Part shown: positions 1 through 12,275 of the stretch, one piece after another | Position numbering within the stretch: position 1 is the stretch's first letter | Layout: the number at the start of each line of letters is the position of its first letter | Source: Parasphingorhabdus sp. | GTDB lineage: Bacteria > Pseudomonadota > Alphaproteobacteria > Sphingomonadales > Sphingomonadaceae | Length of the DNA: 64,000 nucleotides | NCBI RefSeq assembly: GCF_965233695.1 | Contig: NZ_OZ247497.1 | Coordinates: 2,495,277 to 2,559,276 of the forward strand | Direction: 5' to 3' | The notes under the pieces: model-generated | Seen by the model: only the letters and a program-made list of their open reading frames with translations | What the model was told of the DNA's origin: nothing | The model's database searches: none | Made by a program: the position numbers and the translations under genes

Positions 1-1051
<1,051 letters not shown>

Positions 1052-1122
1052 CTATCTGTTAGGTTCAGGGCACTTTGCAGGGTTTGACATAGTAGGTAAC
1101 TTCCAGTGTTGGCATTGACAAA

Positions 1123-1752
1123 TTGCGACTCCCCTCTCTTTATCGCGACGCAAATTTGGATTCGATAGGGCTTGTTTTGGCATCGGAAAAACACAACAAT
1201 TCTGGAAAATCGGGCGATGCTGGCGACGGCAATAGTCCTGATGAAGCCATGCCCGACAACGATCTTGCAGAGCTGTTTGCCCAGTTCAAACTGCCACTGG
1301 AGAAATATTTCCGCAAAAGAGTTTATAACCAGAACGAAGTCGAAGATCTTGTTCAGGATGTATTCTTTCGGCTGACATCGCGCGCCGACAATGCTGATCT
1401 GGAACGGCCAGAGGCGTTTATTTTCCAGATCGCGGCGAATTTGTTACGCGACAAGGCTCGGCGCGAAGCCACCAAACGCGCTTTTACGAAACAATTATCT
1501 GACCAAAATGAAAATGCTTTTGAGGAAATTTCTCCCGAGCGCGTCTTGCTAGGTAAAGAGAAAGTAGTGGCGCTGAAAAACGCATTGAACGAATTGCCTG
1601 AACGCACACGGACCGTATTCCTGCTGCACAGGTTTGAGGAGTTTAAATATCGTGAGATTGCGCAACAATTGGGTATATCGATGAGTTCAGTTGAAAAGCA
1701 TATGATGGATGCCATCAAACATCTTACGAAGCGGTTGGGGTCGTCCGAATGA
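1123..1752 (+). CDS. ECF RNA polymerase sigma factor, FecI-like (true start may be 1249)
   Basis: Region 2 (EVEDLVQDVFFRL, AFIFQIAANLLRD) and region 4 (LPERTRTVFLLHRFEEFKYREIAQQLGISMSSVEKHM); 4-bp overlap with the FecR gene. Confidence 0.92.
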   Translation: MRLPSLYRDANLDSIGLVLASEKHNNSGKSGDAGDGNSPDEAMPDNDLAELFAQFKLPLEKYFRKRVYNQNEVEDLVQDVFFRLTSRADNADLERPEAFIFQIAANLLRDKARREATKRAFTKQLSDQNENAFEEISPERVLLGKEKVVALKNALNELPERTRTVFLLHRFEEFKYREIAQQLGISMSSVEKHMMDAIKHLTKRLGSSE

Positions 1753-2816
1753 AAGATGCTGATCCCATGAGCCCCGCTGGCGGCAACAATGGCGTTGAGG
1801 AACAAGCGGCCTATTGGTTCGCGCGATTGCGTGCGGACAATGCCAGCAAGGGAGATCAGAGGCGCTTCAAGGGCTGGTTGGAAGAGTGTCCACAGCATGC
1901 CGAAGCATATGCTTTGCAGGAAGAAGTCTGGACGGCAATGCAGGACTGCGCGGTGGACGACGATATCATGGCGATGCGGCAAAATGCCTTGGCGCAAAAC
2001 CCGTCCGCTGCAAATAACAATGTCTGGCTAAAATATGGCGCGATTGCTGCTACACTTCTGGTCCTGGCCGTTTCTGTAGTGATGCTAAACCCATTCGCCA
2101 ATTGGGATGGTTCCGGGTCCACTGCTCCCGCAGATCAATTGGCTGAAGCAGGGGCTCAGGAATCTCCGATCTATCGAACGGGCGTTGGGCAGCGATCAAC
2201 GGTGAACCTGCCCGATGGATCCGTGGTTGAACTGAACACGGACAGTCTGATCCAAGTCAATTACAGCGAAGCAGGTCGAGACGTGATCTTGCTGCGCGGT
2301 GAAGCGCTTTTTGAGGTGGCAAAGGATGTCAACCGTCCCTTTGTGGTTGAGGCAGACGACAAGTTGATAACCGCTATTGGAACATCCTTTTCTGTCAGGC
2401 GGTCGGATGATGAAGTACGGGTCACACTAATAGAAGGCATTGTAACGGTCGACAAAGAAAGCGGTGACGATGCCAATGCCGTCAGCACAAAACAAATGCG
2501 GCCGGGAGAGCAGCTCGTCGCAGCTGGTGATTTGCCGTTCAAGGTCAATGTCATCAACACCGCTACGGTTACGAGTTGGAAAGACGGCAGGTTGATTTTC
2601 GACAATGAACCGCTGGGTATGATTGTTGATGAAGTGAACCGCTACTCCACACGCAAACTTGTGGTGGGTGATTCTGCATTGGCCGACATGCGGGTTAGCG
2701 GTATTTTTCAGGTCGGCTCAATAGACAGTTTCGCTGCTGCGTTAGAGGCTTCTTTCCCGGTAAAGAACAGCGCTCCTGCGGATGAAGGCGACATTGTTCT
2801 CGATTGGAAAGAGTGA
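1749..2816 (+). CDS. FecR-family anti-sigma factor / transmembrane sensor
   Basis: EQAAYWFARL N-terminal motif, single TM segment, YRTGVGQRSTVNLPDGSVVELNTDS FecR domain, C-terminal SWKDGRLIFDNEPL. Confidence 0.93.
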   Translation: MKDADPMSPAGGNNGVEEQAAYWFARLRADNASKGDQRRFKGWLEECPQHAEAYALQEEVWTAMQDCAVDDDIMAMRQNALAQNPSAANNNVWLKYGAIAATLLVLAVSVVMLNPFANWDGSGSTAPADQLAEAGAQESPIYRTGVGQRSTVNLPDGSVVELNTDSLIQVNYSEAGRDVILLRGEALFEVAKDVNRPFVVEADDKLITAIGTSFSVRRSDDEVRVTLIEGIVTVDKESGDDANAVSTKQMRPGEQLVAAGDLPFKVNVINTATVTSWKDGRLIFDNEPLGMIVDEVNRYSTRKLVVGDSALADMRVSGIFQVGSIDSFAAALEASFPVKNSAPADEGDIVLDWKE

Positions 2817-2900
2817 CATTTAGTCACTGAAAAATAAGACTTTTGTCTACCAACATCACTTAATATAATACGATTTTTTTCTCTCAATCCGAAAAGATTA

Positions 2901-2928
2901 TGAGGAAAGCAGATGCTCGCGCGTCTTA
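2901..2928 (+). promoter_or_regulatory. Putative ECF-sigma promoter, TGAGG-N16-CGTCTTA, upstream of the TonB receptor
   Basis: TGAGG at 2901-2905 and CGTCTTA at 2922-2928; same motif and spacing at 6699-6726; CGT is a typical ECF -10 core. Confidence 0.65.
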
Positions 2929-2993
2929 CTTTACATCGGGCCAGTTAGCGGATGACTGACGGCCTGCAGGGAAAGATAAGACAGGGGATCATA

Positions 2994-5900
2994 ATGCAAT
3001 CTCGTTCGTTTAAACTGCTGCAGGCAGCGATGCTTACCGGTGCGGCCAATATCGCAATTGTCGGGTCGGCGCAGGCGCAGGACCAAGCCATGTCCTTCAA
3101 CATGCCCAGCCAGCCTTTGTCCTCCGCTTTGAGGGATTATGCTCTCAAGACCGGGAAAAACCTGGTCTATCCACCCAGCATGGTCGCGAACAAAAGGGCC
3201 AACGCTGTGTCCGGTCGTCATACGCCAAAACAGGCTTTGCGTTTGTTATTGAGAGGAACGTCTATTTCCTTTCGCGAGCTTGAGGGCAATGTTCTAGCGC
3301 TCACCGTGATTGGCAATTCGCGGCTCCGCCAAAATGCGGCCAACCCGGCGACTGTTTCTCCGGCGGTCGTACAGAGCGCTTCGGCCACTAGCGCAATGCA
3401 AGCCGATCCCGGTATTGATGATGGCCCGACCGGAGTGGTTTCCGGTACCGTCGTGAACAGGAGCACCGGAGCGGCGTTAAAAGGGGCGCTGGTGCGTATC
3501 GATGGCACAAATCTCGAAACGGTCACTGATGACCGCGGGCAATATTATTTTCCCGCAGTTCCCCGCGGCCAGCGTGTTGTGCGCGTCGAATATCTGGGTG
3601 AACAGACGCAAACCGCAATCGTTTCGGTCACCGCTGGATCACGTGAGCAAGCGAATATAGAGCTCGGTGCCGCCAATCAGGATATTGTCGTCTTCGGCTA
3701 TCGCAGTTCTATCCAACAAGCGCTGAACAAACAGAAAAATGCGGATAACAATGCGACGATTGTGTCCTCGGATTTGCTTGGCGGATTTCCAGCGGAGACG
3801 GTTTCCGAAGCGCTACGGCGTGTGCCGGGCGTTGCTTTTGGGCGGGATGATGAAACCGGGGAAGGATCGCGTATCACAGTTCGCGGGTTCAGCTCGGAAG
3901 CGATTAACGTGCAACTTAACGGCCTGGAAGTGCAAGGCACAGGATTTGAACGCACCGTCGATCTGAGCGGATTCCTGACGGACAATATTTCTGAAATTAC
4001 CATCCACAAATCCTTGTTGCCCAGCCATGAAGGGACGGGTTCTGGTGGACTGGTCGAGATTGAGACCAAGTCGGGGCTCGATTACGGGGATTTCTCGCTC
4101 AATCTTTCTGTCGAGGGCGAAACCAATTTCGACCGCGCCTTTGGTGAGGAGTATCAGATCAATGGAACGGTCGCAAAGAAGTTGACCGACAATTTCGGGA
4201 TTGCGGCGTCGCTACAATATCGGAAAACGGATCGGTTGAATTATACGGCATCGGTGGTCGACGTTATTCCTTCGGTTTTTCCCGTCGGTGCGACTTCTCT
4301 TTTTAACACGCCGGCAAGTCTTGAATTTCCGTTTGATCCGGAACTCGATCAACAACGGCTTATTACGAGCGCGCAATATGCCCGTACCGATCGCGCGGAA
4401 GAGGCCATAGTGGGTTCGGTGAACCTCGCATGGGATGTCGCGGATCATACCCGCTTCCGTTTGGACTTTCAGCGCAATGAGTCGAATATAGTTAGCAGTA
4501 GATCTACCTCTACTATTGGATATTCGTCTTTTTCTACCGATATGCCCATTCCGGAGCTGGACAATGAAGTGCGTCGGCGCGTGACGTTAAGGTCGTTGAA
4601 TCCGCGCCTCATACTTACATCGACGGATGAACAGCGCACGAGCGATAGTATCAGTTTTCGGGGCGACACGGATGTCGGGCGTTGGGAATTTGAATATAAG
4701 GCCGGTTATGGACGGTCCGAGTTCAAGGGGGATAATAGTTTCGTTAATTTCAACGCTGTGGCAACAAATCTGACGGATCTTATTGATCCCGAAACTATTG
4801 TGATCAATCCTGATGATGACGCCGCTGCAACTCCGCGGGTAGTCAATGGCGGGTTCGTTACGGCTGGTAACGGATTAATCATCCCATCGCTAACGCAGGC
4901 CGGAATTGATTTTGTAAACGATCCTTCTAATTACAATTTTTTCAACGCTGTCATTAACCCGATCGAGAATGTGACTGAAACTTATACTGGGGAGTTTCAG
5001 GCGCGATATAACACGCCTCTGGATTTTCTTGAATATATGGAACTGGGCGGCAAATACCAACGCAACACTCGTACTACCAATGACAATCCGTCCAATCCTC
5101 GGACGATCGCAAGTCAGCGATACACAAGGATTGCGAGCCTTCCCACACCTGTAACATTGTTCAATAACGGCACATTTGACCAGGACGGTCTTGCGAAATT
5201 AGGTGTATCAGAATTTTCCATTCCGTTTCTAAGTCCCTCAAATACAAGCAATATTGTTGATCAACTGCCAGATTTCATAACCGATGACCCTGCTACAGAT
5301 TTCAATGAGGCAAGGTTCACTTTCTTGGACTTCGCGGCGCTGGATCCGCTTGTAACGGGCGCTGCCCTAATACCTACCAAAACCATTGAAGAAAGATTTT
5401 CCGGCTATCTGGAATCAAAGCTTACCGTTGGTGATTTCGATCTTATTGCTGGCGTTCGCTATGAGAGGGAGAAGCGGTCCGGCGTAACCATTACTTCGCA
5501 GAGTTTCGTTTTGAACGAGCCAGGCAGGCGCAGCGAGCCCCGTGAAACATTTGTGGAAGCAGGCCTGGTCAGTTTCGACAGCACTTCTGGTTCGGTGGAT
5601 ACATGGACGCCCAGCTTTCTGCTGACCTATCGCCCGATTGAAAATTTCACCGCACGCCTCGGATATTTCCGTTCCACTATCAATCCGGATTTCCGGTTGC
5701 TAAACCGATCCACCACTTTCAGCGTTGACCTTCGCCCCCAATTTGCGCGTGTGACGATATTGGAAGCCAATCCCAGTCTGAAGCCGTCGACGACCGACAA
5801 TTTCGACCTGGATATTGCTTATTATTTCGATGACTCCCCCGGCCTGGTTCGCGCAGGCTTCTTCTATAAAAAGATCAGCAACAATTTTACTAATGTGTCC

Positions 5901-6578
5901 TTCACGGCGGTCGATAACACAGATGTGCGTCAGAGATTTTTGGATCGGTACCAGCCGCTCGCCGCGACCCGGCCTGATCTCCTTGACCTTGACCCCGGCA
6001 CGGTATTCCTCGTCAATCGGCCTGAAAACGGTGAAGGTGGCACGATTTGGGGCATCGAGGGCGAGCTTATCCGGCGGCTGAACTTCTTACCCGGTTTTCT
6101 AAGTGACTTCGGGGTTCTCGCCAACGTGACCTATACTAACGGCGATTTTCCGACATTGGTTTCGGCCCGTGACGATGATGGCAATACCATTCAACTCAGC
6201 CTTGATCGCCCGTTACGTGATCAGGCGCGGTGGGTGTACAACCTGTCGCTCGATTATGAGCGGGATGGCTTCCAGGGGCGCGTCATCTACACCAGCCAGT
6301 CCGCGACAGTAGAAACTTTCGACGAATTTAACATCAATACGGTTATTCCGGGTTATGACACGCTCGACGCGCGTTTTTCCTATAGCTTTGAAAAAGCGGG
6401 GGGACTGTTCACTCTGTTTTTGGAAGGCGACGACTTACTGCGTGGTTCCAAAAAGCCGGACATACGACAAACGACCAGCTCGCAATTTGGTGATGGAAAT
6501 ACGTCGTTCAATTTCCCCGACACGTTTCAATTTAACGGCGGTCGCACCATCACGATGGGTATCCGTGCGAAATTTTAG
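2994..6578 (+). CDS. TonB-dependent transducer with N-terminal STN signalling domain and carboxypeptidase-regulatory-like domain
   Basis: RBS AGGGGA before ATG 2994; signal peptide; STN (FNMPSQPLSSAL...); GVVSGTVVN...GALVRIDGTNLETVTDDRGQY; plug (SEALRRVPGV, ITVRGF); terminal Phe (GIRAKF). Confidence 0.92.
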   Translation: MQSRSFKLLQAAMLTGAANIAIVGSAQAQDQAMSFNMPSQPLSSALRDYALKTGKNLVYPPSMVANKRANAVSGRHTPKQALRLLLRGTSISFRELEGNVLALTVIGNSRLRQNAANPATVSPAVVQSASATSAMQADPGIDDGPTGVVSGTVVNRSTGAALKGALVRIDGTNLETVTDDRGQYYFPAVPRGQRVVRVEYLGEQTQTAIVSVTAGSREQANIELGAANQDIVVFGYRSSIQQALNKQKNADNNATIVSSDLLGGFPAETVSEALRRVPGVAFGRDDETGEGSRITVRGFSSEAINVQLNGLEVQGTGFERTVDLSGFLTDNISEITIHKSLLPSHEGTGSGGLVEIETKSGLDYGDFSLNLSVEGETNFDRAFGEEYQINGTVAKKLTDNFGIAASLQYRKTDRLNYTASVVDVIPSVFPVGATSLFNTPASLEFPFDPELDQQRLITSAQYARTDRAEEAIVGSVNLAWDVADHTRFRLDFQRNESNIVSSRSTSTIGYSSFSTDMPIPELDNEVRRRVTLRSLNPRLILTSTDEQRTSDSISFRGDTDVGRWEFEYKAGYGRSEFKGDNSFVNFNAVATNLTDLIDPETIVINPDDDAAATPRVVNGGFVTAGNGLIIPSLTQAGIDFVNDPSNYNFFNAVINPIENVTETYTGEFQARYNTPLDFLEYMELGGKYQRNTRTTNDNPSNPRTIASQRYTRIASLPTPVTLFNNGTFDQDGLAKLGVSEFSIPFLSPSNTSNIVDQLPDFITDDPATDFNEARFTFLDFAALDPLVTGAALIPTKTIEERFSGYLESKLTVGDFDLIAGVRYEREKRSGVTITSQSFVLNEPGRRSEPRETFVEAGLVSFDSTSGSVDTWTPSFLLTYRPIENFTARLGYFRSTINPDFRLLNRSTTFSVDLRPQFARVTILEANPSLKPSTTDNFDLDIAYYFDDSPGLVRAGFFYKKISNNFTNVSFTAVDNTDVRQRFLDRYQPLAATRPDLLDLDPGTVFLVNRPENGEGGTIWGIEGELIRRLNFLPGFLSDFGVLANVTYTNGDFPTLVSARDDDGNTIQLSLDRPLRDQARWVYNLSLDYERDGFQGRVIYTSQSATVETFDEFNINTVIPGYDTLDARFSYSFEKAGGLFTLFLEGDDLLRGSKKPDIRQTTSSQFGDGNTSFNFPDTFQFNGGRTITMGIRAKF

Positions 6579-6602
6579 AACGAACCCGTTTCCCCCATCT
6601 GT

Positions 6603-6648
6603 TTCCTGAGGCCGTTCCCACCCCAACACCCCGCATCGGCCTCAGGAA
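6603..6648 (+). terminator. 12-bp stem-loop between receptor and protease genes; no U-tract
   Basis: TTCCTGAGGCCG (6603-6614) pairs with CGGCCTCAGGAA (6637-6648); 22-nt loop. Confidence 0.5.
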
Positions 6649-6698
6649 GCAGCACAAAGTCGTGGATTAGAACGGGGTGCAAATATCAAGTCATTTGT

Positions 6699-6726
6699 TG
6701 AGGGATTGGCGTTCCGGTGCGTCTTA
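6699..6726 (+). promoter_or_regulatory. Putative ECF-sigma promoter, TGAGG-N16-CGTCTTA, upstream of the M16 protease
   Basis: TGAGG at 6699-6703 and CGTCTTA at 6720-6726; matches the 2901-2928 copy. Confidence 0.65.
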
Positions 6727-6785
6727 TATAGTAATAGCCGTTAGCCAGTCCGAATGAACCCCCCTGATTCTCTGGAGACCTAGTA

Positions 6786-9686
6786 ATGCGACAGATATCC
6801 CGGTTGCGATTTCTCAATGCGCTGGTTGTCATATCCTGCTTATTCGTTGCAACTCCTGCATTGACACAGGCGAGCAATCAAAACGCCGGCTTCGCCCATG
6901 ACGGGAGTGACCTGAAACCAGATTCCCGGGTCATTTACGGGACACTCGACAATGGCCTGCGCTATGCGGTGATGAAGAACAGCACGCCCAGCGGGGTTGC
7001 AGCGTTGCGGATGCGGATAGCCACCGGTTCGCTGAACGAGACGGACGAGCAGCAGGGGATTGCTCATTTCCTTGAACATATGGCTTTTAACGGTTCCAAA
7101 AATGTTGCCGAAGGGGAAATGATCAAGCGGCTCGAGCGCTATGGTCTGTCCTTTGGCGCGGACACCAATGCCAGTACCGGTTTCAGCCAAACGACGTACA
7201 AGCTAAACCTGCCCACTGTCGGCGAAGAAATACTGAACGAAGCCTTTTTCCTCATGCGGGAAACAGCGCAAAACCTGACGCTTGATAAAGATGCCATCGA
7301 GCGCGAACGCGGCGTTATTGCTTCGGAAAAACGCAGCCGGGATTCGGTCAACTTTCAGGCATTGATTGCCAATATGGGTTTCCTGACCGAAGGCAGCGGA
7401 CTGGTTGATCGCTTGCCCATTGGCAAAGACGAAACCATCGCGACAATGCCGCGCTCAGAATTTGTCAAATATTATCGTGGTTATTACCATCCGGAAAACA
7501 CCTTCATCGCCTTTATCGGGGATGTGGACACCAATCTGGCAATCAAAAAGATCGAAACCTATTTTGGTAACTGGCAACCACCTTCGGCCCCTGCGCCCGC
7601 GGCGCAAATCCCGCCGGTAAATATCGTTCCTGGAAAAGTCGGCTATCATCAGAACGACGAGATATTGACCTTTGTTTCGCTTGGTATCAAGCATCCCTAT
7701 GAAAAGCGTCCGGATAATCTGGCGCGACGCAAAGAGGGCTTTCTGCGTGCGCTGGGGGCACAGATTGTCAATCGCCGCCTGGATCGCAAAGTCGATTCAG
7801 GTGACGCCCCCTATCTTGATGCGTCAATCTCCCGCTATGCACCGGAGGATACGGTGGACGCATGGGTCATCCGCATGCGCAGCAATCCGGAAAACTGGCG
7901 CGCAGCGCTGGCTGGGGGAGACCAGGAAATACGCCGCGCCTTTACCTATGGTTTTTCCCAATCGGAACTGGATGAAGCACTGGCGCGGTGGCGAAAAAGA
8001 CTGGAGGTGGCAGTTGACCGAAAAGCTACGCGCAAGACCTATGCGGGATTGGAGTATAACTATGCCAAGGAACTGGTCGATAGCTTCGCCAATGAGCGTG
8101 TTTTCACTGCGCCGGAAGATGATCTCGATCGGTTCGAAAAATTTGCTGCAGAGATATCATTGGCCGATGTCGAGAGGGTCTTTCGTGAACGCTGGACGGG
8201 AATTGAAAAACCATTTGTCTATCTTGCGACTAGCGCAAAGCTGGACAATCCCGAAGCGGAGATACGATCTGCTCTAGACGCATCACGTAAGATTGCGGTT
8301 TCACCTTTGGAGAGCGATCAGGCGAAAAAATTTGCCTACACCAATTTTGGCCAAAAGGGACTCGTGGTGAAGGAAGCTTATTTGCCTGATGCGGATGCTT
8401 ACTCGATACTATTTGCCAATAATGTGCGGCTTAATTTCAAACAGACCGATTTTGATGCCGATACCATTGGCATTCGAGTAAGAATTGGCAGTGGATTTCT
8501 CTCCATGCCACAAAAGGATGAAAGCTTGCGACGCCTGGCTGAAAACCTTTTAAATGGTAGCGGCGTTCAAGAGCATAGCGCAGATGAGCTGCATACGCTT
8601 TTTGCCGGTAAACGTGTCGGGACAAGAGTGCGTCTGCGTCCGGATAACGATGCGCTAGAAATTATCGGTGGAACCAACCGGGAGAACCTGTCCGATCAAC
8701 TCAATCTGATGACTGCCCATGTGACGGCTCCAGCCTATCGGGAGCAAACTGTTAGGCGCTATCATGACAAGATGAAAGCATGGTATCCGACACATGATGC
8801 GACGCCGCTGACCGTAGCAGAGAAGGAATTACCGCGCATGATAAGGTCCGGTGATCGTCGTTATGGATACGACGATTTGGAGAGCTTTCTAGCGCCTACG
8901 ATCGAGGATGTGCGCGACTGGATGGGGCCGCAACTCGAAAATGGTTTGATCGAAATCACAATCGTTGGCGATGTCGACCGAGCAACAACAATTGCTGAAG
9001 TTGCCCGGACCTTTGGTGCATTGAGCAAAAGAGCAGACAGCAAGGAAAAATATACCGATATGCGCAAGCTGGATTTCCCGGCGCCGCCAGCCGATCCGTT
9101 TGTTTATTATCATCAGGGCAATGCAGACCAGGCCGTCGTCCGGGTTTACTGGCCAGCACCCGATGCGTCGGATCCCGCCAGTATTTTTAAAATGCAAGTG
9201 TTGCGAAGCATTTTTCGTAACCAGCTGACAACGGTCCTCAGGGAGGAAATGGGGGCGACCTACTCGCCAGGCGCAGGTCTATTCGTCAACGATCTGTTCG
9301 AGGGCTATGGCTATATTTTTGCCAGCGTGATCGCAGCGCCGGATCAAGTCGATGCCGTGCGTCAGGCCATATTGGAGGTAGGACAGGATCTTGCGGGTGG
9401 AACCATTGATCAGGATATTTTCGGGCGCGCGTTGAAACCTATTGTCGATGATATTGACAGCACGCTGCAAAACAACAGCTATTGGCTTTCCGTGTTGGGC
9501 GATGCGCAGACCGAGGGGCACGGGATTGTCAGGCACCGACAGCGCGAGTCGGTTCTCAAGATGATGGCAGTTGAAGATATAAACGCCTTGGCAGCCGAGG
9601 TTTTTGTCGGGAAAAATGCTGTCGCTGCTTATGTTTTGCCGATCACGCAGCAAGAGGACATGATGGAAATGGTACAGCGACCATAA
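6786..9686 (+). CDS. Periplasmic M16 (insulinase/PqqL-like) zinc metalloprotease
   Basis: Signal peptide; inverted zincin motif IAHFLEHMAFNGS; GTLDNGLRY, ADTNAST, IERERGVI; about 966 aa two-half architecture. Confidence 0.92.
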   Translation: MRQISRLRFLNALVVISCLFVATPALTQASNQNAGFAHDGSDLKPDSRVIYGTLDNGLRYAVMKNSTPSGVAALRMRIATGSLNETDEQQGIAHFLEHMAFNGSKNVAEGEMIKRLERYGLSFGADTNASTGFSQTTYKLNLPTVGEEILNEAFFLMRETAQNLTLDKDAIERERGVIASEKRSRDSVNFQALIANMGFLTEGSGLVDRLPIGKDETIATMPRSEFVKYYRGYYHPENTFIAFIGDVDTNLAIKKIETYFGNWQPPSAPAPAAQIPPVNIVPGKVGYHQNDEILTFVSLGIKHPYEKRPDNLARRKEGFLRALGAQIVNRRLDRKVDSGDAPYLDASISRYAPEDTVDAWVIRMRSNPENWRAALAGGDQEIRRAFTYGFSQSELDEALARWRKRLEVAVDRKATRKTYAGLEYNYAKELVDSFANERVFTAPEDDLDRFEKFAAEISLADVERVFRERWTGIEKPFVYLATSAKLDNPEAEIRSALDASRKIAVSPLESDQAKKFAYTNFGQKGLVVKEAYLPDADAYSILFANNVRLNFKQTDFDADTIGIRVRIGSGFLSMPQKDESLRRLAENLLNGSGVQEHSADELHTLFAGKRVGTRVRLRPDNDALEIIGGTNRENLSDQLNLMTAHVTAPAYREQTVRRYHDKMKAWYPTHDATPLTVAEKELPRMIRSGDRRYGYDDLESFLAPTIEDVRDWMGPQLENGLIEITIVGDVDRATTIAEVARTFGALSKRADSKEKYTDMRKLDFPAPPADPFVYYHQGNADQAVVRVYWPAPDASDPASIFKMQVLRSIFRNQLTTVLREEMGATYSPGAGLFVNDLFEGYGYIFASVIAAPDQVDAVRQAILEVGQDLAGGTIDQDIFGRALKPIVDDIDSTLQNNSYWLSVLGDAQTEGHGIVRHRQRESVLKMMAVEDINALAAEVFVGKNAVAAYVLPITQQEDMMEMVQRP

Positions 9687-9948
9687 TTCTTCACTAATTG
9701 TTTCTGTGTCATTGCAGGGAATGTTGTGCGCAAAGCTTCCCGCTATTGCGACCAGCAAGCAGGCAGCACGAATCTGGCAAAGAACCTTTCCGTAGCGTAC
9801 GGAAAAACTCCTTGCCCAAAATTTCCAAGGCAGCTGCCATCGCAGCTTTGTTTCATCGGGCCTAAAACCTTGAGGCCAGGTTTTTCCTTGGAATATCCTG
9901 AAATTTCAATGTCGATCACCAGGAAGTGACGCCCTGTTCTATTTCCGT

Positions 9949-10002
9949 TTGACAGCCTTTCAGCCTTAACATTATAAGATAATGCGAATCATAATCATTA
10001 TC
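9949..10002 (+). promoter_or_regulatory. Sigma70-type promoter overlapped by two staggered Fur boxes
   Basis: TTGACA at 9949-9954 and TATAAG at 9973-9978. GATAATGCGAATCATAATCATTATC (9978-10002) holds two 19-mers offset by 6 bp, each matching 16/19 to GATAATGATAATCATTATC. Confidence 0.85.
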
Positions 10003-10022: not shown

Positions 10023-12275
10023 ATGAAACAGCTTTCATGCCGCAAGCGGCCTATCTTCGCGTGCAGCACGATTGCGCTATGCTTTTCTCAAGCGGTTTAT
10101 GCAGCGGATGATGTTGACGATGGGTTCGATGCGAATGAAGGCATAACCGTCACTGCAACCCGCGCACCTGTTGCTATTGAGGACGCGCCCGCAACGGTAA
10201 CGGTCATTGATGCAGAGCGGCTCGCAGATGAACTGGCAACTGACGTTCGCGACATTGTCCGTTTCGAACCGGGTATTTCCGTACGCCGTGCACCGGCGCG
10301 TTTTGGCGCGGCTTTGGGCTCCACGGGCAGGGCAGGGAATGAGGATTTCAACATTCGAGGCATCGGCGGCAACCGCGTGCTCATCCAGGTAGACGGCATT
10401 CGCTCGCCACAAGGATTTAGTTTTGGTGCGCAGGATGTCGGCCGCGGCAACGCAACAGATGTCGGTCTTATCAAATCGGTGGAGATCCTCCGCGGTCCAG
10501 CCTCGGCGCTCTACGGCAGCGATGGGCTGTCCGGTGTTGTCAGTTTTACGACATCTGACCCCGTTGATTTTATTGCAGGCGGTAATGCTGTCGGTGGTTT
10601 TGCGCGGGCACAATATAGTTCCGCGGATGAAGAATTTTCCGAGACAATCGCCATTGCCGGGCAGACGGGTGATTTTTCCGCCATGCTGGCTTACTCACGC
10701 CGTGATTTCAAGGAACTCGATAATCAGGGCACAAATGACGTCGAAGGTTCCGAACGGACGACGCCAAATCCACAAGACGGCCAGTCCGACGCGTTTCTGG
10801 GCAAGCTGGTCTGGAACAACGGTGGCCACCGTGTCCGATTGACCGGCGAATATCTGAAACGGGAAGTTTCGTCCAATGTGCTGTCCGGATTAGGACCGGT
10901 TTTTCTGTTTCCAGGACCGCCGAGCTGGATCGTCGATAGCTTGACCGCCGAAGACAGCACTGAACGGGTGCGTGCGTCGATTGACTGGACTTATGAAACT
11001 GAAGAAGATGGTGTCGGATTGATTGATTACGCGCATGTCGCTGCCTATTGGCAGGATGGCGAGGATGTTCAGTTCGCGAGCGAGGGGCGGATTGCAACCG
11101 GAGCAACGCCGCGGCCAGATCGCGAGCGCCTAAATACATTCAACAATCGCGTCTATGGCGTCGCTGCTGACTTCCGGTCAAGCTTCACTACCGGGCCAAT
11201 CAGGCACAATATCACCTATGGCGGTGACTATAGCATTACTCGGCAAGACGGCCTGCGCGATGGTTTGGTTCCGCCAACCGGTGAATTTTTCCCGTCCCGC
11301 GCTTTCCCTGTAACCGATTTTTCGCTGGGCGGTTTTTTCATCGGTAATGCAATGGAATTTGCCGACGGCATCTTCACGCTCTACCCGGCTCTGCGCTTCG
11401 ACTTCTACGACCTCAATCCTGAAGAAGACCCCCTGCTGCCGGGTTTTGTTCCAACCGGACAAGATGGATCAAAAATCTCGCCGAAAGTCGGCGCGGTCTG
11501 GAAATTGGGTGGTAATGTCCGCATGTTCGGCAATTATGCCCGCGGCTTTCGTGCACCTACGCCCAGTCAGGTCAATAATTTCTTCGAGAATCTAGCCTTT
11601 GGCTACACATCGGCACCAAATCCTGATCTGGACCCGGAAACGAGCGAAAGCTTTGAGGCCGGAATCCGGTATAATGCAGACGGAATTGATCTCGGCCTCA
11701 CAGTCTTCTCGGCAAACTATGACGACTTTATCAGTCAGGAAGTAATCGGGGGTTCCTTCACGCCTGCCGATCCGGCGGTATTCCAGTTTATCAATCTGAA
11801 CAGTGTCGATGTATATGGGATTGAGGCCCGCGCTTCTTATGAAGCCGAAAATGGTTTTCGCGCACGGTTTGCCATCGCCTTTGCGGACGGAACGGTGGAA
11901 GCGCCCGACACGACCGATATATCTTTATCGACGATTGATCCGCTCAATGCGATTCTGGGCGTGGGATATCGCGATCCCGGCAATCGGTTCGGCGGCGAGA
12001 TGATTATCTCTTACAATGCGCGCAAGGAAGCCAACGAAACCATTGGCGTGTGCAATGAGGTCTGTTTCCGTCCCGATGAGTCGGCAATTATCGATGCGAC
12101 CGCATTTTACCGGATCACAGACAATTTTACGATCCGGGCCGGCATATTCAACATTACTGACAAGAAATATGCGCTGTGGAGCGACGTTCGCGGATTGAGC
12201 GCATCATCCAGCATTACCGACGCTTTCACCCAGCCCGGACGGAATGCGAGCATTTCCATCAGCGCCAGCTTTTAA
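10023..12275 (+). CDS. TonB-dependent heme/hemoglobin-family receptor
   Basis: FRAP and NPDL motifs (GFRAPTP...APNPDLDPE); plug EILRGPASALYGSDGLSGVV; terminal Phe; Fur boxes upstream. Confidence 0.88.
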   Translation: MKQLSCRKRPIFACSTIALCFSQAVYAADDVDDGFDANEGITVTATRAPVAIEDAPATVTVIDAERLADELATDVRDIVRFEPGISVRRAPARFGAALGSTGRAGNEDFNIRGIGGNRVLIQVDGIRSPQGFSFGAQDVGRGNATDVGLIKSVEILRGPASALYGSDGLSGVVSFTTSDPVDFIAGGNAVGGFARAQYSSADEEFSETIAIAGQTGDFSAMLAYSRRDFKELDNQGTNDVEGSERTTPNPQDGQSDAFLGKLVWNNGGHRVRLTGEYLKREVSSNVLSGLGPVFLFPGPPSWIVDSLTAEDSTERVRASIDWTYETEEDGVGLIDYAHVAAYWQDGEDVQFASEGRIATGATPRPDRERLNTFNNRVYGVAADFRSSFTTGPIRHNITYGGDYSITRQDGLRDGLVPPTGEFFPSRAFPVTDFSLGGFFIGNAMEFADGIFTLYPALRFDFYDLNPEEDPLLPGFVPTGQDGSKISPKVGAVWKLGGNVRMFGNYARGFRAPTPSQVNNFFENLAFGYTSAPNPDLDPETSESFEAGIRYNADGIDLGLTVFSANYDDFISQEVIGGSFTPADPAVFQFINLNSVDVYGIEARASYEAENGFRARFAIAFADGTVEAPDTTDISLSTIDPLNAILGVGYRDPGNRFGGEMIISYNARKEANETIGVCNEVCFRPDESAIIDATAFYRITDNFTIRAGIFNITDKKYALWSDVRGLSASSSITDAFTQPGRNASISISASF

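What the first reader, a model, noticed from the sequence alone, without database searches (positions are those of the whole stretch)
2901..6726. Identical TGAGG-N16-CGTCTTA motif in front of both the receptor and the protease
Seen: TGAGGAAAGCAGATGCTCGCGCGTCTTA (2901-2928) and TGAGGGATTGGCGTTCCGGTGCGTCTTA (6699-6726) share both boxes, the 16-nt spacing and the G before CGTCTTA. Both are intergenic, within 100 bp of a start codon. Inference: this is the -35/-10 recognition sequence of the adjacent ECF sigma and could define its genome-wide regulon.
Basis: partly seen in the sequence, partly recalled or inferred. Interest (0 to 1): 0.65.

Follow-up and report, generated by a model that had tools for sequence, protein, structure and literature searches.

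The report
Sigma-factor promoter motif, three local copies
The repeated TGAGG-N16-GCGTCTTA signal is very probably the promoter read by the neighbouring alternative sigma factor. It switches on an outer-membrane receptor, a protease and, from a third copy hidden inside the sigma gene, its own anti-sigma factor, which makes it a well-supported but fairly ordinary nutrient-sensing switch.

Summary
TGAGG-N16-CGTCTTA sits at 2901-2928 and 6699-6726, 66 and 60 nt before the receptor and M16-peptidase start codons. These are the only two exact copies in the 4.2-Mb genome.

In 11 orthologous Parasphingorhabdus/Sphingorhabdus loci the two boxes stay fixed (TTGAGGrA and GCGTC) while the spacers and upstream DNA diverge.

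- A matrix trained only on the intergenic sites ranks it third in the genome (27.6 bits; the next hit scores 17.3).
- Synonymous sites from there to the sigma stop are frozen (p = 6e-20).
- In another genus all three sites carry GCATC instead of GCGTC.

The regulon is therefore local rather than genome-wide: fecR, the receptor and the protease.

The sigma gene has no copy upstream, which matches the Serratia HasI/HasS/HasR logic. There is no Fur box, the receptor is of the Xanthomonas/Caulobacter nutrient type, and receptor-protease linkage is conserved. Together these point to peptide or protein scavenging rather than iron uptake.

Verdict: a new member of a known kind, with moderate interest.

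The parts
1177..1752 (+). ECF (FecI-like) sigma factor gene, 191 aa, TTG start (GTG in some orthologues). No copy of the motif lies upstream of it.
   Evidence: Pfam Sigma70_r2, Sigma70_r4_2 and Sigma70_ECF. NCBIfam best hits are FecI-like or Bacteroidetes-type ECF models, all below the equivalog cut-offs. The start was inferred from the orthologue alignment. The best PWM score in 901-1260 is -2 bits.
1518..1548 (+). P_int: third motif copy, TTTTGAGGAA-N13-GCGTCTTG, inside the sigma ORF. It lies in the sigma2-sigma4 linker codons (FEEISPERVL), about 200 nt before the fecR start.
   Evidence: 1-mismatch match. It scores 27.6 bits and ranks third genome-wide with a PWM that excluded it. It is present in all orthologues. 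Box codons are invariant while the spacer Ser codon is free. It covaries with P_rec and P_pep in other genera.
1492..1749 (+). Stretch of suppressed synonymous change, running from about 25 nt upstream of the P_int -35 box to the sigma stop and fecR start. Inferred to be the promoter plus the leader of a fecR transcript.
   Evidence: Synonymous codon identity is 0.82, with 41% of codons invariant in 12 species. The rest of sigma and all of fecR score 0.52-0.55 with 3% invariant. Mann-Whitney p = 6e-20.
1749..2816 (+). FecR-type anti-sigma / sigma regulator gene, 355 aa. Its start overlaps the sigma stop (ATGA).
   Evidence: Pfam DUF4880 and FecR. NCBIfam FecR model matched at 113.8 bits, below its 385-bit cut-off.
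2898..2928 (+). P_rec: TTATGAGGAA-N13-GCGTCTTA, the inferred sigma-dependent promoter of the receptor gene. The TSS is predicted at about 2931-2936.
   Evidence: The boxes are conserved and the spacer and upstream DNA diverged in the orthologues. PWM score 30.8 bits.
2939..2964 (+). Conserved 5'-proximal leader hairpin (GGCC-A-GTTAG / loop CGGATGA / CTGAC-GGCC) in the receptor mRNA leader. The whole leader, 2929-2993, is more conserved than the promoter spacer.
   Evidence: All 9 pairs are standard in 12 of 12 sequences. One pair is compensatory (U-A to C-G) and four changes are G-U tolerant. MFE fold. Hairpins of unrelated sequence occupy the same place in distant loci.
2994..6578 (+). TonB-dependent transducer, 1194 aa, with an N-terminal STN signalling domain and a CarboxypepD_reg domain.
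   Evidence: Pfam STN, CarboxypepD_reg, Plug and TonB_dep_Rec_b-barrel. NCBIfam TIGR01782 TonB-Xanth-Caul above its cut-off.
6599..6652 (+). Strong stem-loop (16 bp, 22-nt loop, no U-tract) just after the receptor stop. Inferred to be a transcript 3'-end or attenuator that separates the receptor and peptidase units.
   Evidence: dG -29.8 kcal/mol, z = -7.4, 0 of 200 shuffles as stable. The stem is conserved in the orthologues.
6696..6726 (+). P_pep: TGTTGAGGGA-N13-GCGTCTTA, the inferred sigma-dependent promoter of the M16 peptidase gene. The TSS is predicted at about 6729-6734.
   Evidence: TTGAGG and GCGTC are invariant in 12 loci while upstream DNA is unalignable. PWM score 34.2 bits.
6786..9686 (+). 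M16 (pitrilysin/insulinase-type) metallopeptidase, 966 aa. Appears to be monocistronic.
   Evidence: Pfam Peptidase_M16 and M16_C. Terminator-like hairpin at 9832-9847. M16 or Met-zincin genes follow the receptor in related loci.

Best explanation
This is a cell-surface-signalling unit of FecI/FecR/FecA architecture in a Parasphingorhabdus/Sphingorhabdus genome. TTGAGGrA-N13-GCGTC(TTA) is the -35/-10 promoter recognised by the locus's own ECF sigma factor.

Inferred mechanism, by analogy with FecA/FecR/FecI. Substrate binding to the STN-bearing TonB-dependent receptor is relayed to FecR. FecR releases or activates the sigma. RNA polymerase carrying the sigma then starts transcription a few nucleotides after GCGTCTTA at three places.
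1. P_rec (2898-2928) gives the receptor mRNA, whose leader carries a conserved 5' hairpin.
2. P_pep (6696-6726) re-initiates behind a strong hairpin and gives the M16 peptidase mRNA.
3. P_int (1518-1548), embedded in the linker codons of the sigma gene, gives a transcript for FecR alone.

The sigma gene has no such promoter upstream. Induction therefore raises the receptor, the protease and the anti-sigma/regulator but not the sigma. This could replenish FecR consumed by signalling, or pre-load anti-sigma for a fast shut-off, as proposed for HasS.

Shown here: the sequence motif, its uniqueness in the genome, its conservation, its covariation and the synonymous constraint. Inferred: sigma dependence, the transcription start sites, the inducer (probably peptides or protein fragments, not iron) and the physiological role of P_int.
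For: - **Gene content.** ECF sigma, DUF4880-FecR, an STN-Plug-barrel receptor and an M16 peptidase.
- **Uniqueness.** The exact motif occurs twice in 4.2 Mb, both copies here. The window holds 3 matches against 0.12 expected.
- **Footprinting.** In 11 orthologous loci (receptor 60-95% identical) all three sites are retained. The boxes are invariant while spacers and upstream DNA diverge.
- **Independent ranking of P_int.** A PWM built only from intergenic P_rec and P_pep sites scores 34.2, 30.8 and 27.6 bits for the three local sites. The next hit in the genome scores 17.3. The remaining hits lie inside ORFs, overlap a start codon, have the wrong spacing or lack the CGTC -10.
- **Synonymous constraint.** Synonymous identity is 0.82 in 1492-1749 against 0.52-0.55 elsewhere (p = 6e-20). 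The F, E, E, R and V codons of the boxes are fixed and the spacer Ser codon is free.
- **Covariation.** In G404 the internal, receptor and peptidase sites all read TGAGGA-N14-GCATC, and the sigma residue changes from ERV to ERI. A second species of that genus (G414) shows GCATC at the two sites seen there, internal and P_rec. In G038 both P_rec and the internal site have GACGAT as the -35 box, with EE changed to DD. L041 has TGCGG...CGTT in both (p about 0.02).
- **Natural controls.** L034 keeps the ERV residues but encodes them as GAG CGG GTG, so it has no internal site while keeping TGAGG...GCGTCTTA sites outside the gene. L040 has the motif upstream of the sigma gene instead.
- **No alternative promoter.** No sigma-70-like promoter is predicted before the receptor or the peptidase, and there is no motif upstream of the sigma gene.
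- **Precedent.** HasI drives hasS and hasR through a shared -35 element and is not autoregulated (review PMC9249621).
Against: - No binding or reporter data exist.
- The -35 box TGAGG lacks the AAC core common to many ECF promoters.
- The conserved protein motif (V/F)EExSPERVL, combined with GC-rich codon bias, can by itself produce a site-like sequence. Several GC-rich homologues (L054, L044, L038) carry an internal look-alike with no matching receptor promoter in the about 500 nt available.
- The synonymous constraint extends about 200 nt beyond the promoter. Some of it must have another cause, such as a leader structure or translational coupling, and that cause is unidentified.
- Another sigma or regulator recognising the motif cannot be formally excluded.
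Confidence: 0.8

Rival explanations
1. Only the two intergenic sites are promoters. The internal copy in the sigma gene would then be a by-product of the conserved linker peptide (FEE-SPERVL) and is not used for transcription.
For: The peptide motif is widespread among Sphingomonadales homologues. In GC-rich genomes it is encoded by GAG/CGC/GTC anyway. L054, L044 and L038 have site-like internal sequences with no detectable matching receptor promoter.
Against: In this 53% GC genus, synonymous positions of the box codons are invariant across 12 species while the spacer codon drifts. The constraint begins just upstream of the -35 box. L034 shows that the ERV residues do not force CGCGTC. In G404 and G414 the amino acid itself changed (V to I) in step with the GCATC variant of the other promoters. 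The site ranks third genome-wide with an independent PWM.
Confidence: 0.17
2. The motif is recognised by something other than the adjacent sigma, either another ECF sigma of the genome or a DNA-binding regulator. The co-location would then be coincidental or reflect co-regulation.
For: No experiment links the motif to this sigma. The genome has other ECF-like genes; for example, an ECF-like ORF ends at G000:C1:2733094 with a TTTTGAGGGA sequence.
Against: All credible sites in 4.2 Mb lie within 5.2 kb of this sigma. The motif travels with the sigma/FecR/receptor cassette across genera, and its boxes change when the sigma diverges. The geometry is that of a promoter, not an operator: a 5+5 core, a fixed 16-nt non-conserved spacer and a CGTC -10. 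This is the only FecI/FecR/STN system in the genome.
Confidence: 0.06
3. Chance similarity, or the remnant of a duplicated or mobile segment.
Against: 0 of 100 shuffles reach the observed count. The exact motif occurs only twice in the genome. The spacers are unrelated, so this is not a duplicated segment. The sites are conserved at orthologous positions in 11 other genomes.
Confidence: 0.01

Closest known systems
E. coli FecI / FecR / FecA ferric-citrate cell-surface signalling
   Same: Same gene set and order: ECF sigma, FecR-type regulator, then a TonB-dependent transducer with an N-terminal signalling domain. There is an ECF-type promoter in front of the transducer gene. There is a hairpin after the transducer gene. 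The region downstream of the start site is conserved here, and in fecA mutations there reduce transcription (PMC9249621).
   Different: No Fur box lies at the sigma or receptor promoters, although a good Fur box sits 3 kb away at 9978-10002. The receptor belongs to TIGR01782 (Xanthomonas/Caulobacter nutrient type) and carries an extra CarboxypepD_reg domain. A protease, not an ABC importer, is co-regulated. fecIR is not regulated by FecI at all, whereas here fecR has its own copy of the motif.
Serratia marcescens HasI / HasS / HasR haem-haemophore signalling
   Same: The sigma drives the receptor operon and the anti-sigma gene through a shared -35 sequence, and the sigma gene is not autoregulated (Biville et al. 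2004, as summarised in PMC9249621). The same wiring is inferred here from P_rec, P_int and the absence of a motif upstream of the sigma gene.
   Different: The has motif (TTTACGGGTTT) is unrelated to this one. There is no haemophore, haem receptor or Fur control here. Here the promoter lies about 200 nt inside the sigma ORF, in the linker codons, with dual coding constraint. The position of the hasS promoter relative to hasI was not checked.
E. coli rpoE-rseABC with the sigmaE-dependent rseA P3 promoter inside rpoE
   Same: An ECF sigma-dependent promoter sits inside the sigma coding sequence and transcribes the downstream anti-sigma gene.
   Different: It belongs to a different ECF group (RpoE-like). 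It is an envelope-stress rather than a nutrient-signalling system. rpoE also has an autoregulated upstream promoter.
Bacteroidota ECF sigma / anti-sigma / SusC-like trans-envelope signalling in polysaccharide utilisation loci
   Same: The receptor N-terminus has the same STN plus CarboxypepD_reg architecture, the target is a non-iron nutrient, and the sigma's best NCBIfam hit is the Bacteroidetes-type ECF model, below its cut-off.
   Different: This is an alphaproteobacterium. There is no SusD partner. The barrel is TIGR01782, not SusC/RagA.

Membership tests
FecI/FecR/FecA-type cell-surface signalling system | ECF sigma with sigma2 and sigma4 domains only | tested here: met
   Pfam Sigma70_r2, Sigma70_r4_2 and Sigma70_ECF. 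NCBIfam TIGR02937 above its cut-off; FecI models matched below the equivalog cut-offs.
FecI/FecR/FecA-type cell-surface signalling system | Adjacent FecR-type membrane regulator (N-terminal anti-sigma domain plus FecR domain) | tested here: met
   Pfam DUF4880 and FecR. The start codon overlaps the sigma stop.
FecI/FecR/FecA-type cell-surface signalling system | TonB-dependent transducer with an N-terminal STN signalling domain | tested here: met
   Pfam STN at residues 70-117 of the 1208-aa ORF translated from ATG 2952 (residues 56-103 counted from the real start at 2994), then Plug and barrel.
FecI/FecR/FecA-type cell-surface signalling system | Transducer gene transcribed from a promoter that depends on the cognate sigma | not testable with these tools
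   A conserved, locus-specific ECF-type motif lies 66 nt before the start codon.
FecI/FecR/FecA-type cell-surface signalling system | Iron (Fur) control of the sigma/regulator operon and an iron-carrier substrate | tested here: not met
   No Fur box with up to 3 mismatches lies anywhere in 1-9900, while one sits at 9978-10002 before the neighbouring receptor. The receptor is TIGR01782, not the siderophore type. The downstream gene is a peptidase.
Has-type wiring (sigma drives anti-sigma and receptor, not itself) | Anti-sigma gene preceded by a promoter that shares the receptor promoter's recognition sequence | tested here: met
   At sequence level only. P_int scores 27.6 bits with a PWM trained on the other sites. 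Supported by synonymous constraint and covariation.
Has-type wiring (sigma drives anti-sigma and receptor, not itself) | Sigma gene not autoregulated | tested here: met
   At sequence level only. The best PWM score upstream of the sigma gene (901-1260) is -2 bits.
Has-type wiring (sigma drives anti-sigma and receptor, not itself) | Haem/haemophore receptor and hasA-type operon | tested here: not met
   Receptor family TIGR01782 and an M16 peptidase downstream. The locus works like Has but is not a Has system.
ECF-type promoter | Bipartite -35/-10 with a fixed 16-17 nt non-conserved spacer and a CGT(C) -10 core | tested here: met
   TGAGG-N16-CGTC at all three sites and in all orthologues, with divergent spacers.
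ECF-type promoter | AAC core in the -35 element (common to many ECF groups; from general knowledge) | tested here: not met
   The -35 box is TTGAGGrA. FecI-like sigmas often deviate from AAC; HasI, for example, uses TTTACGGGTTT.
FecI-like clade ECF239-ECF243 of ECF classification 2.0 | Assignment by the ECF Hub group HMMs, and that group's predicted promoter motif | not testable with these tools
   The paper's supplements are not held. Only the genomic context criteria (FecR plus a TonB receptor) are met.

The most novel reading that the evidence does not exclude
The sigma gene encodes its own recognition site. The codons for the sigma2-sigma4 linker (FEE...ERV) double as a functional -35/-10 promoter that transcribes only the anti-sigma gene, so linker residues and promoter specificity co-evolve. 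Examples are V to I with GTC to ATC in G404 and G414, and EE to DD with GAGGA to GACGA in G038. This 'promoter inside the sigma ORF' would be a recurrent, previously undescribed way for Sphingomonadales cell-surface-signalling systems to obtain Has-like feedback on the anti-sigma alone. Relatives show alternative solutions, with the motif upstream of the sigma gene or absent.
Probability: 0.65. Interest if true: 0.55.

Novelty: new member of a known kind. Interest (0 to 1): 0.42.

Why it matters
The result gives a precise, testable promoter (TTGAGGrA-N13-GCGTC) and a complete predicted regulon of three transcription units for an uncharacterised, non-iron cell-surface-signalling system in marine sphingomonads. 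That system links a nutrient-type TonB receptor to a large secreted or periplasmic protease.

The internal copy is a clean natural example of overlapping protein and promoter codes. It produces a measurable footprint at synonymous sites and co-variation across genera. It also extends the Has-type rule, 'sigma induces its anti-sigma but not itself', beyond haem systems.

The sigma/promoter pair could also serve as an orthogonal expression part.

Tried and rejected
- **ECF group motif look-up.** The supplements of Casas-Pastor et al. 2021 are not held. A literature search for TGAGG/CGTC with ECF terms found nothing.
- **Paralogue test within the genome.** There is only one FecI/FecR/STN system, so no internal comparison was possible.
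- **Presence/absence test.** I searched the loose pattern TGAGG-N15-GCGTC in 41 relatives. The pattern is too short: it matches by chance everywhere, so the test was uninformative.
- **Rfam.** No family matches in 1000-7000, even at E <= 1.
- **ATG at 2952 as the receptor start.** Rejected, because orthologues have frame-breaking indels before ATG 2994.
- **Other genome PWM hits.** I examined the hits at G000 509566, 2290598, 2733065 and 1700646; 3405573 I examined only by translating its three + strand frames. These four lie inside ORFs, overlap a start codon, have the wrong spacing or lack the CGTC -10, and 3405573 also lacks the GAGG -35 core. I did not accept any of them as regulon members.
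- **Duplicated or mobile segment.** Rejected, because the spacers are unrelated.
- **G038:C548 (L025).** No internal site could be recognised.

Full report
**1. The observation**

TGAGGAAAGCAGATGCTCGCGCGTCTTA is at 2901-2928 and TGAGGGATTGGCGTTCCGGTGCGTCTTA is at 6699-6726, both on the + strand.
- With up to one mismatch the window holds three matches against 0.12 expected, and none of 100 shuffles reaches three.
- The window lies in a complete 4,196,552-bp genome. There the exact pattern TGAGG-N16-CGTCTTA occurs only twice on both strands, and both copies are these.
It lies on the same strand inside the sigma gene.

**2. Gene context**

The genes, with Pfam results and NCBIfam results:

| Coordinates | Product | Domains / family |
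|---|---|---|
| 1177-1752 | ECF sigma factor | Sigma70_r2, r4_2, ECF |
| 1749-2816 | FecR-type regulator; start overlaps the sigma stop | DUF4880 + FecR |
| 2994-6578 | TonB-dependent receptor, 1194 aa | STN, CarboxypepD_reg, Plug, barrel; TIGR01782 'TonB-Xanth-Caul' above cut-off |
| 6786-9686 | M16 metallopeptidase, 966 aa | Peptidase_M16, M16_C |

- The sigma start is a TTG at 1177 (GTG in some orthologues).
- The receptor starts at the conserved ATG 2994. The earlier in-frame ATG at 2952 is excluded because orthologues carry 1-nt indels between the two.
- The motifs therefore end 66 nt and 60 nt before the two start codons.
- No sigma-70-type promoter is predicted in either intergenic region.
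- A 16-bp stem-loop (6599-6652, dG -29.8 kcal/mol, z = -7.4) follows the receptor stop and precedes the second motif.
- This is the only FecI/FecR/STN-receptor system in the genome.
- Record titles of related loci place the organism in Parasphingorhabdus/Sphingorhabdus, family Sphingomonadaceae.

**3. Phylogenetic footprinting**

Eleven orthologous loci were found in other species, with receptor identity of 60-95%. Every one has GAGG-N16-CGTC at the three equivalent positions: inside the sigma gene, before the receptor and before the peptidase.

The alignments show classic footprints.
- Before the receptor, the sequence upstream of the -35 box and most of the spacer diverge, while TTTTGAGGrA and CTCGCGCGTCTTAC are fixed.
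- Before the peptidase, the upstream DNA cannot be aligned, but TTGAGG and GCGTC are invariant. The last three bases vary (TTA, TAC, CTA, TAA).

**4. Regulon scan**

I built a position weight matrix from the 17 distinct intergenic sites only (P_rec and P_pep of all orthologues).
- It scores 34.2 and 30.8 bits for the two sites in this genome.
- It scores 27.6 bits for the internal site, which had been left out of the training set.
- The next best position in 8.4 Mb of sequence scores 17.3 bits.
- I inspected 509566 and the hits with 15- or 17-nt spacers in their ORF context; they lie inside ORFs, overlap a start codon or lack CGTC. For 3405573 I only translated the + strand frames; it also lacks the GAGG core.
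- Nothing scores above -2 bits upstream of the sigma gene.

The predicted regulon is local and has three members. It is not genome-wide.

**5. Is the internal site real?**

It lies in the codons for FEEISPERVL, in the linker between sigma2 and sigma4, about 200 nt before the fecR start. Three lines of evidence argue for function.

(a) *Synonymous constraint.* Among 12 species, the identity of synonymous codons averages 0.55 in the first 315 nt of the sigma gene and 0.52 in fecR, with 3% of codons fully invariant. In 1492-1749 it averages 0.82 with 41% invariant (Mann-Whitney p = 6e-20). The rise begins about 25 nt upstream of the -35 box. The box codons (F, E, E and R, V) never vary, while the Ser codon in the spacer drifts freely (TCT, TCG, TCA).

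(b) *Covariation.*
- In G404, a different genus with a sigma 44% identical, the internal, receptor and peptidase sites read TGAGGAGATTACGCCCGAGCGCATC, TGAGGAAAAGCCAGACTGCTGCATC and TGAGGAAAAGCGGAGGACACGCATC. All three carry GCATC instead of GCGTC, and the sigma residue changes from ERV to ERI.
- A second species of that genus (G414) shows GCATC at the two sites seen there, internal and P_rec.
- In G038, another family, the receptor promoter and the internal site both have GACGAT as the -35 box. The linker changes from EE to DD, and a further copy lies upstream of the sigma gene.
- L041 has TGCGG...CGTT in both places (p about 0.02).

(c) *Natural controls.*
- L034 retains the ERV residues but encodes them as GAG CGG GTG. 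It has no internal site, although TGAGG...GCGTCTTA sites flank the genes.
- L040 places the motif upstream of the sigma gene instead.

*Caveat.* In several GC-rich homologues (L054, L044, L038) the peptide motif combined with codon bias yields a site-like sequence, and I could not find a matching receptor promoter in the 500 nt available. An internal look-alike alone is therefore not proof. I put the probability that P_int is used in this lineage at roughly 0.7.

**6. Leaders**

The receptor leader (2929-2993) is more conserved than the promoter spacer.
- It contains a hairpin at 2939-2964. All nine pairs are standard in 12 of 12 sequences. One pair is compensatory (U-A to C-G), and four one-sided changes go through G-U (fold).
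- Tolerance of G-U pairs points to an RNA structure rather than a DNA structure.
- Distant loci have hairpins of unrelated sequence at the same place.
- The function is unknown. I infer a 5'-proximal stabiliser or a regulatory element.
- For comparison, in E. coli fecA, mutations downstream of the start site strongly reduce transcription (PMC9249621).
- No Rfam family matches.
- The stretch of synonymous constraint from P_int to the fecR start coincides with the predicted 5' leader of a fecR transcript.

**7. What the system probably does**

Several observations argue against an iron-carrier system.
- No Fur box lies in the locus, whereas a good one sits at 9978-10002 before the neighbouring haem-type receptor.
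- The receptor belongs to the Xanthomonas/Caulobacter nutrient-receptor family.
- In related Sphingomonadales loci the receptor is followed by a large metalloprotease. In G302 and G389 an M16 gene lies 66 and 27 nt downstream, apparently co-transcribed. G404 has an M16 gene behind a terminator and its own promoter. G345 and two Sphingomonas MAGs have a Met-zincin (DUF4953/DUF5117) instead.

The conserved receptor-protease pairing, with non-orthologous replacement of the protease, suggests uptake and processing of peptides or protein fragments. This is an inference. The second promoter copy in this lineage looks like a way to re-initiate behind the strong post-receptor hairpin.

**8. Comparison with known systems**

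The architecture is that of FecI/FecR/FecA cell-surface signalling. The wiring matches the Serratia Has system: a promoter copy before the anti-sigma gene and none before the sigma gene. There HasI induces hasS and hasR through a shared -35 sequence and is not autoregulated, and the proposed benefit is rapid shut-off by accumulated anti-sigma (PMC9249621).

This locus is not a Has or Fec member, because the defining substrate and iron-control features are not met. A sigma-dependent promoter inside the sigma ORF is also known, from memory, for E. coli rpoE (rseA P3). I did not verify this here. I could not assign the ECF 2.0 group or compare its predicted motif.

**9. Verdict**

- It is a new member of a known kind.
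- The basic finding is ordinary for a cell-surface-signalling locus. The dual-coded internal promoter, with its synonymous-site footprint and cross-genus covariation, is the part worth an experiment.

Noticed in passing
window 2939-2964 (leader 2929-2993): The receptor mRNA leader is almost invariant across 12 species. It holds a 9-bp hairpin with one compensatory pair and four G-U-tolerant changes. Distant loci have unrelated hairpins at the same place. No Rfam match.
   Followed up: partly
window 6599-6652: A 16-bp stem-loop without a U-tract (dG -29.8, z -7.4) lies directly after the receptor stop and is conserved in the orthologues. It resembles the attenuating hairpin after E. coli fecA.
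   Followed up: partly
window 9978-10002: Two overlapping Fur-box matches (3 mismatches each; 0.03 expected) lie just before the next TonB receptor gene (10023-12275), overlapping a sigma-70-like promoter at 9966-9995. The signalling locus itself has none.
   Followed up: no
L022 8056-10701; L060 6257-8893; L058 6294-9203; L059 1929-4895 (-); L062 2140-5025 (-): In related Sphingomonadales loci the receptor is followed by either an M16 peptidase or a Met-zincin (DUF4953/DUF5117). The receptor-protease pairing is therefore conserved with non-orthologous replacement.
   Followed up: partly
window 1158-1166: GGATTCGAT is invariant in 12 orthologues just upstream of the sigma TTG/GTG start, within otherwise diverged sequence. 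It could be part of the ribosome-binding region or a regulator site for the sigma gene.
   Followed up: no
G000:C1:2733065-2733094 (- strand; outside the window): TTTTGAGGGATAAAGCATCTGCGCGCGTAA overlaps the stop codon of another ECF-sigma-like ORF and precedes a 239-aa ORF. It has a similar -35 box but a different -10, and may be that sigma's own downstream promoter.
   Followed up: no
L026 10200-10380 (- strand): A roughly 180-nt, extremely AT-rich segment lies between an upstream motif copy and the sigma start in an otherwise GC-rich genome (G038).
   Followed up: no
window 1681-1752: Downstream of P_int there is an in-frame ATG (1681) with a purine-rich stretch before it. It would give a 23-residue C-terminal sigma fragment ending at the ATGA overlap with fecR. 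This might allow translational coupling on the short transcript, but that is pure speculation.
   Followed up: no
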